A DNA stretch of 64,000 bases, taken from Endomicrobiales bacterium. GTDB lineage: Bacteria > Elusimicrobiota > Endomicrobiia > Endomicrobiales > JALOBY01. The translations under genes and the position numbers were made by a program. Below are positions 15,352 to 38,290 of this stretch, piece after piece. The notes beneath the pieces were generated by a model. The model was given only the letters and a program-made list of their open reading frames with translations. It ran no database searches and was not told the DNA's origin. The DNA lies in NCBI GenBank assembly GCA_963796955.1, contig CAWCNJ010000004.1, positions 352,001 through 416,000 on the forward strand. Direction: 5' to 3'. Position 1 is the first letter of the stretch, and each line of letters opens with the position of its first letter.

Positions 15352-16677
15352 ATGAACCGTGAAACGAAACTGGGGATGTTCGTGCTGATGGGACTGGCGC
15401 TGCTGGTTGCCAGTATCATGCTGCTGGGCGACTTTCATATACGGCGTTCATACGAGATCTCCGTGAGCTTTAATGACGTTTCAGGGTTGCCGGATAAAGC
15501 AAAAGTGAAAATAGCCGGTGTGGTCGTCGGATCGGTCAGAAAGATAGTTTTGCAGGGTGATAAAGCGATCGCATACGTGAGGATAAACGCCGGGGTGCGC
15601 GTTCACAGGGACACAAAACCCTGCATTGTTTCAACCGGTATTATCGGCTCAAAATATTTGCAGTTGACGGCCGGAACCGACCAGGCACCTTTGCTTGAAG
15701 AAGGTGACGCTATATCCGGCGAAGAATGCGTTTCTCTTGAGCAGATGGCCTCAAATCTGGTTAAAAAAGTTGATGAGTTATTTTCTTCTTTCAAAGGTAA
15801 AGAGGGGCAGGGCAGCCTGGGCGAGAATCTTGGCGACACGGTTGCCAACCTTAAGGCTGTTTCGAGAACGCTTAAAGTTGCCATCGGCGACCAGGAAGAA
15901 AAGATCCGCAGGATAGTGAACAATATCGACGACTTCACCGCTGATGTCGCGGAGATGACCGCAGAGAATAAGCAGGATATCCGTGATGCCGTCGCCAACA
16001 TTAAAGAGCTGAGCGCCAAGATGGACCGCGTGATGACGAAGGTGGATAAAGGGGAGGGCACGATCGGCAAGCTGCTATCCGACGAAAAAATGGGTAACGA
16101 CCTGAAAGACACCTTTGCTGACGTGAAAGAGACCGCGAAAGAGGCCAAACGCGTGCTGAAACGCATCAATTATATAGAGACCAGCTGGGACTATACCCAG
16201 CGCTATGACAGCACATACAGCACTTTTCGTTCTGACGCAGGGCTTCTTATCAATCCCCGTCCTGACAAATTTTATTATGTAGGCGCCTCGAATGTTGGTG
16301 ACAGTACGAATTCGACGGACATAGAAAAGATGAATACGATCAACTTTTTAATAGGAAAAAATCTGGGACCGGTAACGGCCTACGCCGGGGTGATCCGTTC
16401 CAAAGGCGGCCTTGGCGTGGTGATCCGCCCACTATGGCATTGGGAGCCGTGGCGCAAACTTGAAATTACAGGTCAGTCGTATGATTTCTCAAGGACCACC
16501 CCGAACAAGCCTGTCGTTACCGCTGGCGCGCGGGTGCAGTTGACCAGGTGGGTCGCTATCGGTTCACAGGTAGAAGATATGAGCAACCGGGCGAATGTGA
16601 ACAGCTATATAAACTTTACCGTCCGCGACGACGACCTTGGGTATGTTCTCGGCCTAGTAGGCCTTGCCAGGCCGTAG
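15352..16677 (+). CDS. mlaD: MCE/MlaD-family protein with helical linker and C-terminal beta-rich domain
   Basis: N-terminal TM helix, MCE motif SGL...VKIAGVVVG.V...GIIGSKY, long helical region, GEGTIGKLL, amphipathic beta strands at the C-terminus. Confidence 0.88.
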   Translation: MNRETKLGMFVLMGLALLVASIMLLGDFHIRRSYEISVSFNDVSGLPDKAKVKIAGVVVGSVRKIVLQGDKAIAYVRINAGVRVHRDTKPCIVSTGIIGSKYLQLTAGTDQAPLLEEGDAISGEECVSLEQMASNLVKKVDELFSSFKGKEGQGSLGENLGDTVANLKAVSRTLKVAIGDQEEKIRRIVNNIDDFTADVAEMTAENKQDIRDAVANIKELSAKMDRVMTKVDKGEGTIGKLLSDEKMGNDLKDTFADVKETAKEAKRVLKRINYIETSWDYTQRYDSTYSTFRSDAGLLINPRPDKFYYVGASNVGDSTNSTDIEKMNTINFLIGKNLGPVTAYAGVIRSKGGLGVVIRPLWHWEPWRKLEITGQSYDFSRTTPNKPVVTAGARVQLTRWVAIGSQVEDMSNRANVNSYINFTVRDDDLGYVLGLVGLARP

Positions 16678-16691
16678 CGTCCCAGGAAATC

Positions 16692-18055
16692 ATGAAACAA
16701 AAAAATAAAACGATATTCAGGTGTCAGGAATGCGGCTATGAGTCATCAAAATGGCTCGGCAAGTGCACTGATTGCGGTAAATGGAATACTTTTATAGAAG
16801 AAAAGCAGGAGACCGTCGCAGGCATACGCCATAGTTCTCACCTTACTGATTTCACTTCTGAAGTGACGCTGCTAAACGATGTCTCCACAGCCCAGTGCGA
16901 CCGCTGGCAGACGGATATCGGTGAGTTTGACCGCATAGTCGGCGGGGGTCTGGTACCGGGCTCCCTGGTGCTGCTGGGCGGTCCTCCGGGTATCGGTAAA
17001 TCCACGCTCATGCTGCATATCAGCGCGGCCCTGGCGCCGCAGCACAGCGTGCTCTATGTTTCCGGCGAGGAATCCCTTGCGCAGGTAAAGGCGCGCGCCG
17101 ACCGGCTGAACATTAAAAGCGATAATCTGTACCTGCTTTCTGAAACAAATCTTGAAAGCATTCTTACCGCGATAGATAAGATAAAACCTTCCGTCCTGGT
17201 GATAGATTCCATCCAAACGACGTATCGCGGCGATATGGTGGGCGCCCCGGCGCCGTCGGGCAGGTGCGCGAGTGCTCTGCCGAATTCTTACGCATCGCGA
17301 AATCCCGGCATATCTGCATTTTCCTTCTCGGCCATGTCACTAAAGAAGGTGACCTTGCCGGGCCCCGCATTCTTGAACATATCGTTGATACCGTGCTGTA
17401 TTTTGAGGCCGAGCGGCAGCAGATCTACCGGGTGTTGCGTGTGTACAAGAACCGCTTCGGCGCGACGAACGAGATAGGGGTTTTTGAAATGCGGGAACAG
17501 GGTCTGATAGAAGTCCCTAACCCTTCGCTCATATTCCTCGGCGAGCGTTCCATGAACGCGCCCGGCAGCGTGGTAGTGCCGACCGTTGAAGGCACACGGC
17601 CGCTATTGCTTGAGATACAGTCTCTGGTCAGCCGCACCAGCTTTGGCCTGCCGCGGCGCATGGTGACGGGGTATGATGCCAACCGTGTGATGCTGCTGAT
17701 CGCCGTCCTTGAAAAACGTGTCGGCCTGCATTTGGAGACACAGGATGTTTTTGTCAATGTCGTCAGCGGTATTAAAATAAAAGAGACAGCCGTTGATCTG
17801 GGCATAGCCTGCGCGATAGCTTCGGCGAACGGCAATTACGTCTGCCCGCCGAAAACACTTATTATCGGAGAAGTGGGTCTGGCGGGTGAAGTGCGTTCGG
17901 TAAGCCGCATAGAGGAACGCCTGACTGAAGGGGAAAAACTGGGTTTTGAAAAAGCGATCGTGCCGAACAGCAATGTAAAGTCATATAATTACAAAGGCAG
18001 TATGCAGGTGGCGGGTGTTGACACCGTAAGCGCCGCCATTGAACATCTGCGATAG
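16692..18055 (+). CDS. radA: DNA repair protein RadA/Sms (apparent 1-bp frameshift near 17245-17250)
   Basis: CQECG/CTDC Zn finger, GGPPGIGKS and VIDSIQT in one frame; GHVTKEG, KNRFG and GEVGLAGEVR in the next. One extra C restores GAPGAVGQVREC. Confidence 0.93.
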
Positions 18056-27646: not shown

Positions 27647-28055
27647 AAAGTTTCTCAGGCTTTTCGACGCGAATGTGAACCGATGCCGGGAAGGGTTGAG
27701 GGTGCTGGAAGACAGCGCCCGGTTCGTAATGAACAAGCCGGCGCTCTACAAGAAGTTAAGATCTCTGCGCCATAGTGTTGATAGATTGACGAGAAATATT
27801 TATCCTGAAATGCTGGCGGTCAGGGATTCTGTTTCGGACAGCGGTCGTTCGATGAAAGAAAATAGCAAAAGATCCGGACTTGGAGCGGTCCTTGCGGCGA
27901 ATTTTCGCAGGGTTGAAGAATCTCTCCGGGTCCTTGAAGAGTATGGAAAGATAGTTTGTCCTGATTCCGCAAAAGAATTTAAAGCGATACGATACGCCGC
28001 ATATACCATGGAAAAAAAGGTCAGCCTTGAAAACGAAAGCTCTGACGTTGGTTGA
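27633..28055 (+). CDS. Stand-alone ThiD2-like domain (usually fused to the N-terminus of ThiE)
   Basis: DAN.NR.REGLRVLED ... RD...D.G ... ANFRRVEESLRVLEE...RY..Y..EK; overlaps thiC. Confidence 0.78.
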   Translation: MVPNKKFLRLFDANVNRCREGLRVLEDSARFVMNKPALYKKLRSLRHSVDRLTRNIYPEMLAVRDSVSDSGRSMKENSKRSGLGAVLAANFRRVEESLRVLEEYGKIVCPDSAKEFKAIRYAAYTMEKKVSLENESSDVG

Positions 28056-29301
28056 AGCAGCAAAAGCACATAAACAACACCCATCAATAACAGCGGCCGC
28101 AAAAAGCGAGAAGCTTTCCGCCTCATTTATCAGCAAGGGTGTGGCGGATGGTACCATCGTTATACCGCGCAACCGCAACCGCAAATTAAAACGCGTCGTC
28201 GGCGTCGGCAAGGGCCTTGTTTCCAAGGTCAACGCCAATATCGGCTCATCACCAAAACATATTTCAATAGAAAAAGAACGCCAAAAGCTGCAGGCGGCCA
28301 TCTCTGCGGGCGCTGATGCTGTTATGGACCTTTCCACCGGCGGCGACTTGAAAAAGATACGCCGTATGGTGCTGGACGAATGCCCCGTGCAGGTCGGCAC
28401 CGTGCCGCTGTACCAGGTTTCCTGCGAGACGATGAAACGCGGGAAAGGTCTTTCGGACCTTGACGGTGAACATTTATTCGACGTTATAGAGCAGCAGGCC
28501 GAAGAGGGCGTTGATTTTGTGACCGTGCACTGCGGCATAACGAAGCGTACCGTGCAGGCATTGCACAGCCGCAAGCGCCTGGTCGGTGTTGTCAGCCGCG
28601 GCGGCTCTATGCTCAGCAAATGGATACTGGCTACCAAAAAAGAAAATCCGCTCTTTGAGCAGTTCGACCGGCTGCTGGCCATAGCAAAAAAACATGACAT
28701 GACCTTAAGCCTCGGCGACGGACTGCGCCCGGGCTGCCTCGCGGATGCTAATGATGCCGGACAGCTTTCAGAATTGTCGGTGCTTGGCGATCTTGTGCTG
28801 CGCTGCCGTAAGGCCGGTGTGCAGGCTATGGTAGAAGGCCCCGGTCACATGCAGCTGAATTATATCGCCGACCATGTTAAAGCTGCCAAGAAAGTAATGC
28901 ACGGCGCGCCGTATTATCTTCTTGGGCCACTGGTATGCGATGTCGCTGCCGGCTACGATCATATAACCGGTGCCATAGGCGGCGCTATAGCCGGCGCCGC
29001 TGGAGCCGACTTTTTGTGTTACGTTACACCCGCGGAGCACCTGCGGCTGCCTAACGCCGACGATGTTTATCAGGGAGTGATCGCCAGCCGTATAGCGGGA
29101 CACGCTGCCGACATTGTTAAATATGGACAGAAAGCCCGTCAGTGGGATGATACCTTTTCAAAACACCGCAAGGCCTTCAACTGGAAAGCCATGGGAAAGC
29201 TGGCTTTGGACCCGATAAAATTCAATAAAGAAAAAGAAGTTATAGTAGGCGAAGGCGCGGAAGTTTGTACGATGTGCGGCGAATTTTGCGCGATGAAGTA
29301 A
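28027..29301 (+). CDS. thiC: Phosphomethylpyrimidine synthase ThiC (short form)
   Basis: KVNANIG, MDLSTGG, VSRGGS, SLGDGLRPG, EGPGH, YVTPAEH, C-terminal CTMCGEFC. Confidence 0.9.
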   Translation: MKTKALTLVEAAKAHKQHPSITAAAKSEKLSASFISKGVADGTIVIPRNRNRKLKRVVGVGKGLVSKVNANIGSSPKHISIEKERQKLQAAISAGADAVMDLSTGGDLKKIRRMVLDECPVQVGTVPLYQVSCETMKRGKGLSDLDGEHLFDVIEQQAEEGVDFVTVHCGITKRTVQALHSRKRLVGVVSRGGSMLSKWILATKKENPLFEQFDRLLAIAKKHDMTLSLGDGLRPGCLADANDAGQLSELSVLGDLVLRCRKAGVQAMVEGPGHMQLNYIADHVKAAKKVMHGAPYYLLGPLVCDVAAGYDHITGAIGGAIAGAAGADFLCYVTPAEHLRLPNADDVYQGVIASRIAGHAADIVKYGQKARQWDDTFSKHRKAFNWKAMGKLALDPIKFNKEKEVIVGEGAEVCTMCGEFCAMK

Positions 29302-29313
29302 ATTGAAACGGTC

Positions 29314-29436
29314 GTACATTTCGGCCATCTTTCGGATTCACACTTTCAGAACGGCCTCCTGAGACTGCGTCTCATAGCGGAGGCCTCTAGAACCAACACA
29401 CTCTGAAAGTGTTCACCCGAAAATAGCCTCGTGTAC
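29314..29436 (-). repeat. ~120-nt structured hairpin element, copy 1 (inverted)
   Basis: Reverse complement aligns end to end with copies 2 and 3. GTACA...TGTAC ends; invariant GAGACGCAGTCTC core. Confidence 0.92.
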
Positions 29437-29476
29437 GCCGCATTAAGAACAACTGCTGTTCTGTCAACGAAAAACC

Positions 29477-29603
29477 GCTATGTACGAGGGTATTTTCGGG
29501 GAGCATTTTCAGAGTGTGTCGCCTCTCGAGGCCCTCGTCATGAGACGCAGTCTCAGAGGGCCGTTCTGAAAATGCGAGTCGAAAGATACCCGAGATGCAT
29601 AGC
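29477..29603 (+). repeat. ~120-nt structured hairpin element, copy 2
   Basis: Nested stems GCTATGTA/TGCATAGC, GGGTATTTTCG/CGAAA-G-ATACCC, GCATTTTCAG/CTGAAAATGC, GGCCCTC/GAGGGCC, GAGAC/GTCTC. Confidence 0.92.
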
Positions 29604-29620
29604 ACCTTAAGGGAAAAAGT

Positions 29621-30250
29621 ATGAATATAGTGTGTTTAGACCTTGAAGGTGTGTTAGTGCCTGAGATATGGATAGCTTTCTCTGAAAAAACAGGGATTGC
29701 CTCCTTGCGGGCGACGACCAGGGACATCCCTGATTATGATGTTCTTATGAGACAGCGTTTAAAGATACTGAAAGAAAATAACCTTAAGCTGAAAGATATT
29801 CAGGACGTGATCGGTACGTTGAAGCCGCTTGATGGGGCGCTGGATTTCATTAACTGGCTTAGAGAGCGCTTTCAGGTGGCGATATTATCAGATACATTCG
29901 ATGAATTTGCTTTGCCGTTAATGCGCCAGCTTGGCTACCCGATGTTGTTGTGCCATCGACTGGAGATCGACAGTAACGGTATGGTAGCAGGTTACTGTCT
30001 GAGGCAAAAAGAGGCCAAACGCGAATCGGTCAAAGCTTTCAAGAGCCTGAAGTACCAGGTGATCGCCGCAGGCGATTCTTATAATGATACGGCTATGCTT
30101 TCAGAGGCGCACGCGGGGATACTGTTTAAACCTCCCCAGAACGTGATAAACGATTTTCCTCAATTTCCGGTAACAAAGAGCTACGCGGAACTGCAGGATA
30201 CTTTGCTGAAAACTCAAAAACGCTTAAGTGAGGGTAGCATATGCCTTTAG
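29621..30250 (+). CDS. thrH: Phosphoserine phosphatase / homoserine phosphotransferase ThrH
   Basis: HAD motif CLDLEGVLVPEIW, TTRDIPDYDVLM, AAGDSYND. Confidence 0.93.
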   Translation: MNIVCLDLEGVLVPEIWIAFSEKTGIASLRATTRDIPDYDVLMRQRLKILKENNLKLKDIQDVIGTLKPLDGALDFINWLRERFQVAILSDTFDEFALPLMRQLGYPMLLCHRLEIDSNGMVAGYCLRQKEAKRESVKAFKSLKYQVIAAGDSYNDTAMLSEAHAGILFKPPQNVINDFPQFPVTKSYAELQDTLLKTQKRLSEGSICL

Positions 30251-34862: not shown

Positions 34863-36598
34863 ATGATAAAAACAGGAGCAGAGATACTGGTGGAATGCCT
34901 TATGCGCGAAGGGTCGGATATGGTTTTTGGCTATCCGGGCGGCCAGGTTATTCCGATATTTGACGCAATATACCGCAGTAAGCTTAACCTTGTGCTGGTG
35001 CGCCATGAACAGGGCGCCGCCCATATGGCAGACGGTTTTTCACGCTCGACCGGCAGGGTCGGCGTTTGTCTTGCCACATCAGGGCCGGGCGCCACAAACC
35101 TTGTTACCGGTCTTGGCACGGCATACATGGATTCTATACCCATGGTCGCTATTACCGGACAGGTGCCGACAACATTGATCGGCAACGATGCTTTTCAGGA
35201 AGCCGATACGACGGGCATAACGCGCCCTGTCACAAAACATAATTTCTTGGTGAAAGATGTTAAGGACCTTGCGCGTACGATTCGCGAGGCTTACCATATC
35301 GCTTCCACCGGCAGGCCGGGTCCCGTCCTGGTGGATATTCCCGCTGACGTTCAGCGGGCTTCTACGGAATTCATTTGGCCAGAAAAAGTCGATATCAGGT
35401 CGTATAAACCGAATCTCGTTGGACATCCCGGACAGATAAAAAAAGCCGCGCAGGCTATAAACGAGGCGAAACACCCGGTGCTCTACATCGGCGGCGGAGT
35501 TATTACGAGCAGTGCGGAAAAAGAGTTATGCGAGCTGGCTGCCAAGGCTGAGATCCCGGTTACAAATACGTTACTTGGGATCGGCGCTTTTCCGCCTCAG
35601 TCGCCGCTTTATCTGGGTATGCCGGGCATGCACGGAACATATTACGCCAATATGGCCATACAAAATTCCGATCTGATAATTGCCGTAGGCGCCCGTTTGA
35701 CGACAGGGTTACCGGAAAGGTCTCGGCTTTCGCACCGAAGGCAAAAATAGTCCATATTGACATCGACCCGACCTCGATCTCTAAAAGTATTGTGGCAAAT
35801 ATTGCCATAGTCGGAGACGCAAAAGGCATACTGAAAGAATTGCTTAAAGATGTCCGCAACAATAAGCATGCCGAGTGGATGAAGACCATCGCAAATTGGA
35901 AAAAGACACATCCTCTCACATATAAAGACACAGACAACAGGCTGCGCCCGCAGTACGTGATCGATCAGATCAGCGAACTGACAAAAGGCGAGGCGATAGT
36001 CGTTACCGAGGTGGGCCAGCATCAGATGTGGGCGGCCCAATTCTATAAGGCCAGCAAGCCGAGGAATTTCTTGAGCTCAGGCGGTCTTGGCACCATGGGT
36101 TTTGGATTTCCTGCCGGTATAGGCGCGAAAATGGCCAACCCTAAAGAGCAGGTTATAGTTATAGCGGGAGATGGTTCCATTCAGATGAACATTCAGGAAA
36201 TGGCTACCGCCGTGCTTAACGGGGTGAACGTTAAAATAGTTATACTTAACAATTCATATCTTGGCATGGTGCGCCAGTGGCAGGAGATGTTCTGGGACAA
36301 GCATTATTCTTCCGTCTGTCTGAAAAAGAACGACCAGTGCCCGTTCCGCTGCAACAAGCGCACCGCCGACTGCCCGGGCTATATACCGGACTTCGTGAAA
36401 CTTGCCGAGGCCTACGGGGCGGTGGGTATGCGTGTCACTGATAAAAAAGATGTAATCTCGTCATTGAAAAAGGCATTAAAACTCAACAAGACGGTTGTTA
36501 TGGAATTTATAGTTGAAGAGCAGGAAAATGTTTATCCCATGGTGCCGGCCGGCCACGCTCTGGATGAAATCGTCACTCTTACAACTAACCTCGCATAA
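34863..36598 (+). CDS. ilvB: Acetolactate synthase large subunit (apparent 1-bp frameshift at 35696-35698)
   Basis: [14 protein letters not shown] and GMPGMHG in the first frame; VGQHQMW, GGLGTMG and GDGS in the second. One extra T restores GARFDDRVTG. Confidence 0.94.
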
Positions 36599-36609
36599 GG
36601 AGAAATAGA

Positions 36610-37104
36610 ATGCGCCATACCATATCAGTCCTGGTGGAAAATAAGTTCGGTGTCCTTGCGCGTATATCAACATTGTTCGCGGCGCGGGGTTTTAACATAG
36701 ATTCGCTTTCAGTCGGTGAGACGGAGAATCCTGATGTTTCACGCATGACCATCATCGTTCAGGGCGACGACCGCATACTTGAGCAGGTGGAAAAACAGCT
36801 TAATAAACTTGTCGATGTTATCAAGGTGCTGGACTTTCAACAGACCAAGCACATTGAGCGTGACCTGGCTCTGTTGAAAGTGAAAGTTGATAAACATAAC
36901 CGCTCTGAGATTATGCAGATGGTAGATGTCTTTCGGGCGAAGATAATCGATGTCGCCCAGGATTCTATAATAGTAGAGATAACGGGCACGGAAGATAAAG
37001 TTGACGCTTTGATGGAGCTGTTCAAGCCCTTCGGCATCAAAGAAATGTCCCGCACCGGTGTTATCGCCATGGCTAGAGGTTCTAAGCTTGGTAATAGTAA
37101 ATAG
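36610..37104 (+). CDS. ilvN: Acetolactate synthase small subunit
   Basis: ACT domain ENKFGVLAR, RGFNIDSL, KQLNKLVDV. Confidence 0.95.
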   Translation: MRHTISVLVENKFGVLARISTLFAARGFNIDSLSVGETENPDVSRMTIIVQGDDRILEQVEKQLNKLVDVIKVLDFQQTKHIERDLALLKVKVDKHNRSEIMQMVDVFRAKIIDVAQDSIIVEITGTEDKVDALMELFKPFGIKEMSRTGVIAMARGSKLGNSK

Positions 37105-37105
37105 A

Positions 37106-37225
37106 GTACACGAGGCTATTTTCGGTGGGCATTTTCAGTGTGTGTCGCCTCTCGAGGCCCATGTTATGAGACGCAGTCTCTGAGGGTCGTTCTGAAAATG
37201 CGAAGCGAAAGATAGCCGAATGTAC
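37106..37225 (+). repeat. ~120-nt structured hairpin element, copy 3 (ilvN-ilvC spacer)
   Basis: GTACACGAGGCTATTTTCG...GAGACGCAGTCTC...CGAAAGATAGCCGAATGTAC. Confidence 0.92.
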
Positions 37226-37288: not shown

Positions 37289-38290
37289 ATGGCAGCCAAA
37301 ATGTATTATGACAAAGATGCGAATCTGGATCTTCTTAAGGGTAAAAAAATAGCGGTGATCGGTTACGGTTCACAGGGCCATGCACAGGCGCAGAACCTGC
37401 GTGATTCAGGCTTGAACGTTGTTGTCGGCCAGCGCGAAGGCGGCGACAATTATAAGAAGGCGATCGCCGACGGTTTTAAGCCGGTCAGCGCTGCTGATGC
37501 TACCAAGGGTGCGGATTGGATACATATCCTTTTGCCCGACGAAGTACAGGCGGGCATCTGGAGCAATGACATATTGCCGAATTTGAAAAAAGGCGCCACC
37601 GTCAGCTTCTCTCATGGTTTTAATATCCGTTTCTTCCAGATAGAGCCGCCCGCGGATACGAATGTGGTGATGATAGCTCCCAAGGGCCCCGGCCATCTTG
37701 TGCGGCGCCAGTATGAGGAAGGCAAGGGCGTTCCCTGCCTTATAGCCGTGCATAACGACGCGACCGGTAATGCCAAGGATCTGGCACTTGCGTTCGCCAA
37801 AGGCGTCGGCGGAACACGCGGCGGTGTGCTTGAAACAACGTTCTCTGAAGAGACCGAGACGGATCTTTTCGGCGAGCAGGTGGTACTGTGCGGCGGACTT
37901 GTTGAACTGATCCGCGCCGGATTCGAAACGCTTGTTGAAGCCGGCTACCAGCCTGAGATCGCGTACTTTGAATGTCTGCACGAGTGTAAGCTTATAATAG
38001 ACCTGATATGGGAAGGCGGCATCAACCGCATGAATTATTCCGTTTCAGATACCGCGGAATACGGTGAATATAAAGTCGGCAAACGCATTATTACCGACGA
38101 GACACGCAAAGAAATGAAGAAAGTGCTTGCCGATATCGTTTCCGGACAGTTCGCGCACGACTGGCTGCTGGAGAACCGCCTCGGCCGCCCTAAATTCAAA
38201 CATTCACGCAAAGTCTGCAAGGAAGAGCCTATTGAAGTCGTCGGCAGCAAGCTGCGCGCGATGATGCCGTGGCTGAATAAGGGGAAATAA
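37289..38290 (+). CDS. ilvC: Ketol-acid reductoisomerase
   Basis: [32 protein letters not shown]. Confidence 0.97.

What the first reader, a model, noticed from the sequence alone, without database searches (positions are those of the whole stretch)
29314..29603. Unrecognised ~120-nt hairpin element family with strong covariation (three copies)
Seen: copies at 29314-29436 (-), 29477-29603 (+) and 37106-37225 (+) fold into the same long nested hairpin, and stem differences preserve pairing. P1 is GTACA/TGTAC versus ATGTA/TGCAT. P2 is GGCTAT/ATAGCC, GGGTAT/ATACCC or GGCTAT/ATGGCC. P3 is GCATTTTCAG/CTGAAAATGC versus ACACTTTCAG/CTGAAAGTGT (two compensatory pairs). P4 is GGCCCTC/GAGGGCC versus GGCCTCC/GGAGGCC. 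Invariant parts are TTTCG/CGAAA, one bulged G, a 17-nt/3-nt asymmetric loop and the apical GAGAC-GCA-GTCTC. The termini covary rather than stay fixed and I see no target-site duplication, which is unlike a classic MITE. Inference: a structure-selected dispersed element (non-autonomous mobile unit, recombination site or ncRNA). No cognate enzyme lies in this window.
Basis: partly seen in the sequence, partly recalled or inferred. Interest (0 to 1): 0.85.

Follow-up and report, generated by a model that had tools for sequence, protein, structure and literature searches.

The report
Paired rod-hairpin repeats between housekeeping genes
The three hairpins are real copies of a small, gene-less repeat of one uncultured bacterial lineage that folds on one fixed strand, tends to sit in back-to-back pairs between housekeeping genes and changes little once in place; it resembles known bacterial palindromic repeats, but the enzyme that spread it and what it does for the cell are not shown.

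Summary
Confirmed. The genome holds 7 copies, all between co-directional genes; 2 metagenome contigs add 3 more. Arms covary (19 of 43 pairs, 0 of 500 shuffles) around a conserved core. Mismatches favour one strand (G·A 30 vs T·C 0; G·T 15 vs A·C 3) whichever way a copy faces transcription or replication. Copies form head-to-head pairs of unlike partners, as does a second, longer family in this genome (5 of 5 pairs). At one orthologous site the arm is 39/40 identical while neighbouring four-fold sites are 37/71. No target-site duplication, fixed ends, Rfam match or adjacent enzyme; not found in 121 other genomes of the class. Best reading (0.5): a non-autonomous element recognised as a folded single strand, probably DNA, now resident and under purifying selection. 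It works like ERIC, REPIN and TwoAYGGAY doublets but fails their membership tests. The scan's own notes report the class 'conserved core, variable paired arms' on other DNA, so the family is undescribed in what I searched, but the kind is not new.

The parts
29309..29440 (-). Copy c1, partner 1 of the doublet. Apical hairpin of subtype A; right arm, P4 and loop motif closer to subtype B
29441..29476 (.). 36-nt spacer between the 5' ends of c1 and c2, ending in AAAAACC. Holds all six indels listed for the piece of run X4 that spans the pair
29477..29603 (+). Copy c2, subtype A, partner 2 of the doublet. Right arm 39/40 and core 50/51 identical to the copy before thrH in contig L009
29513..29529 (+). 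5' strand of the 17/3 asymmetric loop of c2 (3' strand GTT at 29563-29565)
   Evidence: read; fold
29542..29554 (+). Apical stem with a GCA triloop closed by C-G in c2
37106..37225 (+). Copy c3, solo, subtype A, starts 2 nt after the ilvN stop codon; P4/P5 partly broken
28027..29301 (+). thiC (upstream neighbour of the doublet)
29621..30250 (+). thrH (downstream neighbour of the doublet)
36610..37104 (+). ilvN (upstream neighbour of c3)
37289..38290 (+). ilvC (downstream neighbour of c3)

Best explanation
A lineage-restricted, gene-less mobile repeat whose working form is a folded single strand, more likely DNA than RNA. SHOWN: dispersed paralogues in short gene spacers, presence/absence between relatives, a covarying rod, a strand-specific mismatch pattern, head-to-head pairs of unlike partners, no duplication and no fixed ends, strong conservation of one resident copy. 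INFERRED: an enzyme acting in trans recognises the conserved asymmetric loop and apical core of the extruded hairpin, not the ends, and moved copies (often as a pair) into spacers just after stop codons without duplicating the target. The likeliest enzyme is an HUH/Y1-type or other nicking nuclease; none was found beside any copy. The outer arms are free to diverge between sites as long as they pair, and now and then one arm is rewritten from the other (copy c5, the argG-argH remnant). Once in place, copies are held by purifying selection, which implies an acquired host role or a cost of mismatched hairpins.
For: 7 copies at 6 unrelated sites, all intergenic, both orientations. None in the ilvN-ilvC region of 20 relatives or the thiC-thrH spacer of 5 (best E 0.073). 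A doublet at argG-argH in L007 where G000 keeps only the two outer stubs. Covariation: 93% of cells paired, 19 of 43 pairs with double changes, 0 of 500 shuffles, at most 5 pairs in slid controls. Core 87% vs outer arms 59% and 56% identical among 7 subtype-A copies; own arm is the best partner in 8 of 9 copies. G·A 30 vs T·C 0 and G·T 15 vs A·C 3 (p 0.008), with G·T:A·C 7:2 in sense and 8:1 in antisense copies; by my count from that:2 where the folded strand is the inferred leading strand and 8:1 where lagging. The G·A mismatches stand mostly as tandem pyrimidine-GA-purine loops, a motif that stabilises DNA hairpins (PMC10085684, passages). GNA triloops are a DNA mini-hairpin motif, and the related RNA hairpin is much less stable (PMC13037366, passages). 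5 of 5 pairs of this and family Y are divergent (0.25^5 = 0.001), as are 68.4% of TwoAYGGAY doublets, for which a mobile-element-like spread is proposed (bioRxiv 10.64898/2026.09.22.753630, section 8 and passages).
Against: No mobilising gene found: the four Y1 domains of the genome lie in elements with their own terminal inverted repeats and no model hit nearby. No IS110 or reverse transcriptase in an 81% complete genome; DUF559, GIY-YIG and integrase genes lie away from all copies. No clean empty allele from a close relative, so no insertion was seen; the only near-relative difference is a deletion. A purely selfish element should decay at the synonymous rate, yet one orthologous arm is 39/40 identical. 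Tandem G·A and G·U pairs are also common in RNA (established knowledge). The triloop here is ACGCAGT, not the GCGNAGC of the paper, and the 2 subtype-B copies of 10 lack it. Copies share descent, so mismatch counts are not independent, and the structure came from the same alignment. Low copy number (7) suggests little present activity.
Confidence: 0.5

Rival explanations
1. A structured RNA element that acts in operon transcripts (double-strand RNase cleavage site, stability element or protein-binding rod), spread earlier by duplication and kept for its effect on metabolic mRNAs, as proposed for ERIC and Correia repeats.
For: All 6 G000 sites and the L007 site lie between co-directional genes; G·U-type bias and tandem G·A suit RNA; strong conservation at the thrH site; the reviews describe ERIC and NEMIS effects on mRNA through RNase E and RNase III (PMC2229807, PMC3184786, passages).
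Against: 4 of 9 copies have the favoured strand antisense to the host operon with the same bias; no promoter- or terminator-like site in 29200-29700 (sigma-70 consensus only); no Rfam family; co-directional junctions are 1428 of 1843 in this genome anyway.
Confidence: 0.2
2. A host-maintained single-stranded DNA signal (priming, replication-restart or protein-loading site). A head-to-head pair would offer one folded site on each strand, like ssiA/ssiB of plasmid origins.
For: Conservation well above four-fold sites, unpaired bases included; indifference to transcription direction; DNA-type motifs; unlike partners in 5 of 5 pairs; mini-hairpins occur at phage and plasmid priming signals (PMC13037366, passages); 5 of 6 sites on one contig (p 0.002, 0.008 for any contig).
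Against: Not found in 121 other genomes of the class, nor in the one other genome of the family; lost from argG-argH in G000; most copies are solo; no primase or other partner shown; the conservation test rests on one contig.
Confidence: 0.12
3. An old, decayed classic MITE whose terminal repeats and target duplications have been erased by drift and by copying of one arm from the other; covariation is a by-product of template switching, without selection on the fold.
For: Copy c5 has a 38-bp arm duplex with the internal loops erased, and the argG-argH remnant carries the complement of a left arm, so arm copying does occur; size and intergenic habit match MITEs.
Against: 8 of 9 copies keep G·A loops that copying would erase; one-sided G·T bias; orthologous arm nearly unchanged where neutral copying would give near-synonymous divergence; the ends are the least conserved part.
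Confidence: 0.12
4. A site for site-specific recombination between copies (attC-like folded substrate), rearranging the chromosome.
For: L009 joins the purB-side left arm (87% to c5) to the thrH-side right arm (97% to c2), and its left arm pairs better with the c5 right arm (-54.0) than with its own (-30.6 kcal/mol); one piece of run X4 leaves the window sequence inside the c2 core.
Against: The join puts purB and thrH back to back with only the element and two ribosome sites between them, which would cut both from their operon promoters, so a mis-assembly across the shared core is more likely (inference); no attC-type GTTRRRY ends (consensus recalled); no recombinase nearby.
Confidence: 0.06

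Closest known systems
TwoAYGGAY elements (Rfam RF01731; extended form in bioRxiv 10.64898/2026.09.22.753630, abstract, section 8 and passages read)
   Same: Multi-copy intergenic structured repeats with a long basal stem, covariation, variable presence, significant excess of divergent doublets, no known mobilising enzyme.
   Different: No AYGGAY terminal loops, no two-hairpin head, no 3' extension or upstream 5-6-mer arrays seen; pair spacers 24-36 nt against a median 249 bp; no RF01731 match.
ERIC/IRU (127-bp enterobacterial repeat; seen through passages of PMC2229807 and PMC3184786)
   Same: Same size, imperfect rod palindrome, intergenic in operons, both orientations. That orthologous ERIC copies are unexpectedly conserved and carry inserts is recalled from Wilson and Sharp 2006 (not held).
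   Different: ERIC has fixed 7-bp terminal repeats, TA ends and a target duplication; here the ends vary and no duplication is found.
REPINs / REP doublets moved by RAYT Y1 transposases (PMC3116915, passages)
   Same: Non-autonomous, extragenic, inverted doublets that fold into a hairpin, compensatory changes in the arms, single-strand mechanism proposed.
   Different: In REPINs the ends are conserved and the middle varies; here the reverse holds. Units are about 125 nt, no copy flanks a RAYT gene, and copy number is 7, not hundreds.
Unnamed rod family with a CTGTTTGA / stem-loop / GAGTT internal loop (motif recalled from memory, then found in 22 viral-contig loci, 6 related genomes and family Y of this genome; possibly the family of note e1-7657207)
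   Same: Variable but paired stems around a fixed asymmetric loop ending in GA opposite GTT, tandem G·A loops beside T-run/A-run helices, GNA triloop, unlike divergent pairs (family Y). Model R2 scores one member 27.9 bits on the right strand.
   Different: Model R3 and a sequence profile of 21 members do not find the finding's copies; R2 found nothing in 5 whole genomes that hold members; an unrelated hairpin reached 20.3 bits. Kinship is suggestive only (about 0.35).
bcr1 of the Bacillus cereus group and YPAL of Yersinia (review passages)
   Same: 100-170-bp dispersed repeats; bcr1 keeps its fold by compensatory changes.
   Different: Both make target duplications (5 bp; 3-26 bp); bcr1 is cruciform.

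Membership tests
Classic bacterial MITE / ERIC | Fixed terminal inverted repeats shared by all copies | tested here: not met
   Outer arms 56-59% identical between copies against 87% for the core; ends listed
Classic bacterial MITE / ERIC | Target-site duplication or TA ends | tested here: not met
   Longest repeat near both ends 2-3 nt, different in 7 of 7 copies; no empty allele of a close relative to confirm
Classic bacterial MITE / ERIC | Short, non-coding, intergenic, multi-copy, long stem-loop | tested here: met
Classic bacterial MITE / ERIC | Ends match an autonomous IS | tested here: inconclusive
   No similarity to the ends of the genome's Y1 elements; ISfinder not available
REPIN / REP | Conserved short REP palindromes at both ends with a variable spacer | tested here: not met
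   Conservation is central, not terminal
REPIN / REP | Same repeat flanks a RAYT gene | tested here: not met
   4 Y1 domains in 3 places, all below the REP_Tyr_transpos cut-off for the 3 proteins scanned, no R2 hit within 1.5 kb; genome 81% complete
REPIN / REP | Inverted doublets over-represented | tested here: met
   1 pair among 7 copies (p 0.01-0.03), a second in L007, both divergent
REPIN / REP | Excision intermediates in reads | not testable with these tools
   Only contigs of distant relatives were available; no joint skipping the element
TwoAYGGAY (RF01731) | Two hairpins with AYGGAY terminal loops on a basal stem | tested here: not met
   Single apical hairpin with a GCA loop; no match (the control rang nowhere)
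TwoAYGGAY (RF01731) | Divergent doublets | tested here: met
   2 of 2 pairs of this family, 3 of 3 of family Y
TwoAYGGAY (extended model) | Match to the extended covariance model of the 2026 preprint | not testable with these tools
   Model and supplements not available
CTGTTTGA/GAGTT rod family | Profile or covariance-model match | tested here: inconclusive
   Negative; one reverse hit of 27.9 bits
IS200/IS605 ends (PATE-like) | Short subterminal hairpins with tetranucleotide guide and cleavage sites, tnpA or tnpB nearby | tested here: inconclusive
   No tnpA beside any copy; ends too variable to show a fixed tetranucleotide
Any Rfam 15 family | Score at the gathering threshold | tested here: not met
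   0 in the window; best E 0.1 in 29250-29650; 0 at E 1 in 8 loci

The most novel reading that the evidence does not exclude
The element is a structure-encoded single-stranded DNA device that works as a head-to-head pair of two unlike rods, one on each strand. It is a compacted branch of a large, cross-phylum family of rod repeats (CTGTTTGA/GAGTT loop, GNA triloop) that spreads without target duplication or a linked enzyme and is then kept by the host, for instance as a priming or protein-loading signal.
Probability: 0.12. Interest if true: 0.8.

Novelty: new variant of a known kind. Interest (0 to 1): 0.45.

Why it matters
How ERIC-like and TwoAYGGAY-like repeats spread, and why resident copies are kept, is still open; the 2026 preprint says the link between mobility and function is unresolved. 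This small family offers a compact test case: the conserved part is the loop and not the ends, the fold is strand-specific regardless of transcription, partners in a pair are unlike, and one resident copy is more conserved than the coding sequence beside it. If the DNA-fold reading is right, it points to a mobilising or host factor that reads a hairpin interior. On its own it is one more unnamed repeat in one uncultured genus.

Tried and rejected
Rfam: nothing at threshold. Wider spread: 0 of 40 relatives by DNA; 0 of 150 phylum genomes with model R1; 0 of 40, 0 of 121 and 0 of 5 with R2 (these searches score only prefiltered candidates and missed the 27.9-bit site). A loose pattern gave single hits in 5 of 400 phylum genomes (control pattern 2 hits), and none of the 5 folds like the element. 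Pattern scans: 0 hits in viral contigs; 7 viral hits of a subtype-B motif, none real; 9 hits in genome contigs, none real, and 8 of 10 metagenome hits not real. Plasmids and phages: no match. Family Y outside G000: 1 short chance-like hit in 400 genomes, 10 viral motif hits not real, 0. Enzyme search: Y1 genes have their own ends; IS110 and reverse transcriptase not found; DUF559 is flanked by a different palindrome; none of 67 neighbours of 28 loci of the wider rod family is a transposase (67 of 103 reading frames were scanned). Homology to the wider rod family was not confirmed. A search for further deletion scars gave 1 hit, inside a coding region. No RNA holder was listed, which says nothing on expression. 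Alignment A5 was discarded because it held opposite-strand matches; c5 was left out of model R2 for that reason. In one search the two subtype-B left arms were cut at the wrong place (corrected). In one search purB was out of frame (corrected). The hybrid contig L009 was left out of the mismatch counts. Literature searches found no description of this family; subscription journals, ISfinder and the preprint's supplements were not seen.

Full report
Observation. Each folds into one nested rod, far better than shuffles as RNA and as DNA. They lie between thiC and thrH (two copies, head to head, 36 nt apart) and between ilvN and ilvC. The stem variants are as described, with two caveats: the long loop strand varies, and the third copy has a damaged inner stem. 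The window holds housekeeping genes and no mobile-element enzyme. Earlier notes on this genome call the organism an uncultured Elusimicrobiota bacterium (unchecked, though the genes fit).

The family. The genome (2.1 Mb, 81% complete) holds six close copies and a seventh, divergent one: acpS-nnr, proA-moxR, recN-ferredoxin, purN-purB and the window's sites (neighbours outside the window named by eye from translations). All lie between co-directional genes, in both orientations. A metagenome pattern scan gave 2 true loci of 10. L007 has a pair at argG-argH, one partner of a second subtype (B) shared with the seventh copy; G000 keeps only the outer stubs there. L009 joins the purB-side left arm to the thrH-side right arm, most likely an assembly join. 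Contigs of three of four runs cover parts of the window's pair; in run X4 two pieces run from thiC through c1 and the spacer into the c2 core, with all six listed indels in the spacer (246 pieces not shown). The family was not found in 121 other genomes of the class, 150 of the phylum, plasmids or phages. The orthologous spacers of 20 and 5 relatives lack it; they are short or hold unrelated hairpins.

Anatomy. From the outside in: a 5-11-bp helix, a tandem G·A loop with one extra base, a helix with a T-run, a second tandem G·A loop, an 11-12-bp helix, the 16-17/2-3 asymmetric loop, a 7-bp helix, a 4-nt bulge and a 6-bp stem with a GCA triloop (subtype B has another tip). Among seven subtype-A copies the core is 87% identical and the outer arms 59% and 56%. 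On six copies 93% of cells pair and 19 of 43 pairs show double changes, above all 500 shuffles and all slid controls (structure and alignment are not independent). With a strand-neutral aligner on nine copies, mismatches are G·A 30, T·C 0, G·T 15, A·C 3. The G·T excess holds in copies sense (7:2) and antisense (8:1) to the host operon, and on both inferred replication strands, so it follows the element's own strand rather than a transcription or replication bias. Related copies are not independent, so the p value of 0.008 overstates. Tandem pyrimidine-GA-purine pairs and GNA triloops are known stabilisers of DNA hairpins (passages of PMC10085684 and PMC13037366); they lean towards DNA but do not exclude RNA. 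One copy (c5) has arms made fully complementary with the loops erased, so arm-to-arm copying happens, but it is the exception.

Conservation in place. Between G000 and L009 the thrH-side arm is 39/40 and the core 50/51 identical, and the purB-side arm 34/38, while four-fold sites are 37/71 in thrH and 6/22 in purB and the short flanks differ (Fisher p 1e-7 for the right arm). The arms are site-specific, so conversion among paralogues does not explain this. It is one contig, and a possibly chimeric one, but each half is compared with its own flanking gene. Run X1 agrees (4 differences and 1 gap in 147 letters), run X4 less so (28 in 235 including the spacer).

Pairs and the wider context. Both pairs are head to head and join unlike partners. 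An all-against-all search of spacers showed a second family (Y, ten ~200-nt rods) with three such pairs. Random placement gives p 0.01-0.03 for one pair among seven and 3e-5 or less for three among ten; five of five divergent has p 0.001. Y carries a CTGTTTGA/AGTT loop. A motif I recalled from memory found 22 viral-contig loci with that loop, a GCGNAGC tip and covarying stems, and a model of these and Y found members in 6 of 39 relatives. The finding's family shares short features with them, and one descriptor written after the fact picks 12 members of both families among 14 hits with 2 in each control. Independent tests of kinship were mostly negative, with one hit of 27.9 bits against 20.3 for an unrelated hairpin. 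I treat kinship as possible, not shown.

Mechanism. The best reading (0.5) is a non-autonomous element recognised through its folded interior as a single strand, probably DNA, inserted without duplication by an enzyme in trans and now held in place by selection. Dispersal, strand-specific covarying fold, pairing and local conservation are shown; the enzyme, the DNA-versus-RNA choice and any host role are inferred. No candidate enzyme lies beside a copy. Rivals are an mRNA-level element (0.2), a host single-stranded DNA signal (0.12), a decayed MITE with arm copying (0.12) and a recombination site (0.06).

Comparison and novelty. It works like ERIC, REPINs and TwoAYGGAY doublets, but fails a defining test of each: no fixed ends or duplication, conserved middle instead of ends, no flanked RAYT gene, no AYGGAY loops (passages). 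Six literature searches found no description of it. The scan's notes hold no look-alike sequence but report the same kind of element, a conserved core with variable paired arms, in at least six other genomes, and a rod family on another piece of this genome, which gave me the TwoAYGGAY lead. Verdict: real, an undescribed family and a variant of a known kind; interest 0.45.

Noticed in passing
G000:C8:29490-29685, C8:230776-230968, C8:457001-457192, C6:97922-98131 (solo); C7:74165-74652, C1:2525-2936, C6:94815-95243 (pairs): Family Y: ten ~200-nt rod hairpins of two subtypes. Three pairs, each one of each subtype, head to head; one copy carries a ~56-nt insert. It belongs by profile to a wider rod family found in 6 related genomes and viral contigs.
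   Followed up: partly
G000:C9:54806-54835: argG-argH spacer keeps only the outer stubs of the doublet that is whole in L007: a deletion scar, with one stub the complement of a left arm.
   Followed up: yes
L009:891-1019: Hybrid element joining purB and thrH back to back; assembly join or real rearrangement.
   Followed up: partly
G000:C4:1-1510, C6:71910-72980, C5:189380-190330: Y1 (HUH) transposase genes bounded by terminal inverted repeats, with a C-terminal helix-turn-helix region in the longer proteins; unusual for IS200/IS605-type elements. The C4 copy starts with a partial tandem duplication at the contig end, and the C6 copy is interrupted at its right end by another IS.
   Followed up: no
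window 24688, 33062, 56710: Copies of a different repeat, a hairpin plus ribosome-binding site just before start codons; probably the leader repeat of note e1-7657206.
   Followed up: no
window 34863-36598 and 16548-18055: ilvB and radA each appear as two reading frames, domains split between them: frameshifts or assembly errors.
   Followed up: no
G000:C7:84935-85571: DUF559 gene bracketed by two copies of a C-rich/G-rich palindrome that also occurs solo.
   Followed up: no
L045, L050, L054, L056, L057, L067, L068, L069: The same ilvN-ilvC and thiC-thrH spacers hold unrelated hairpin or heptamer repeats in other genomes of the order: these spacers are landing places for several repeat families (judged by eye).
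   Followed up: partly
L108, L110, L123, L125 and L109, L118, L122, L126: Members of the wider rod family sit in two groups of similar phage or prophage contigs, with covarying stems.
   Followed up: no
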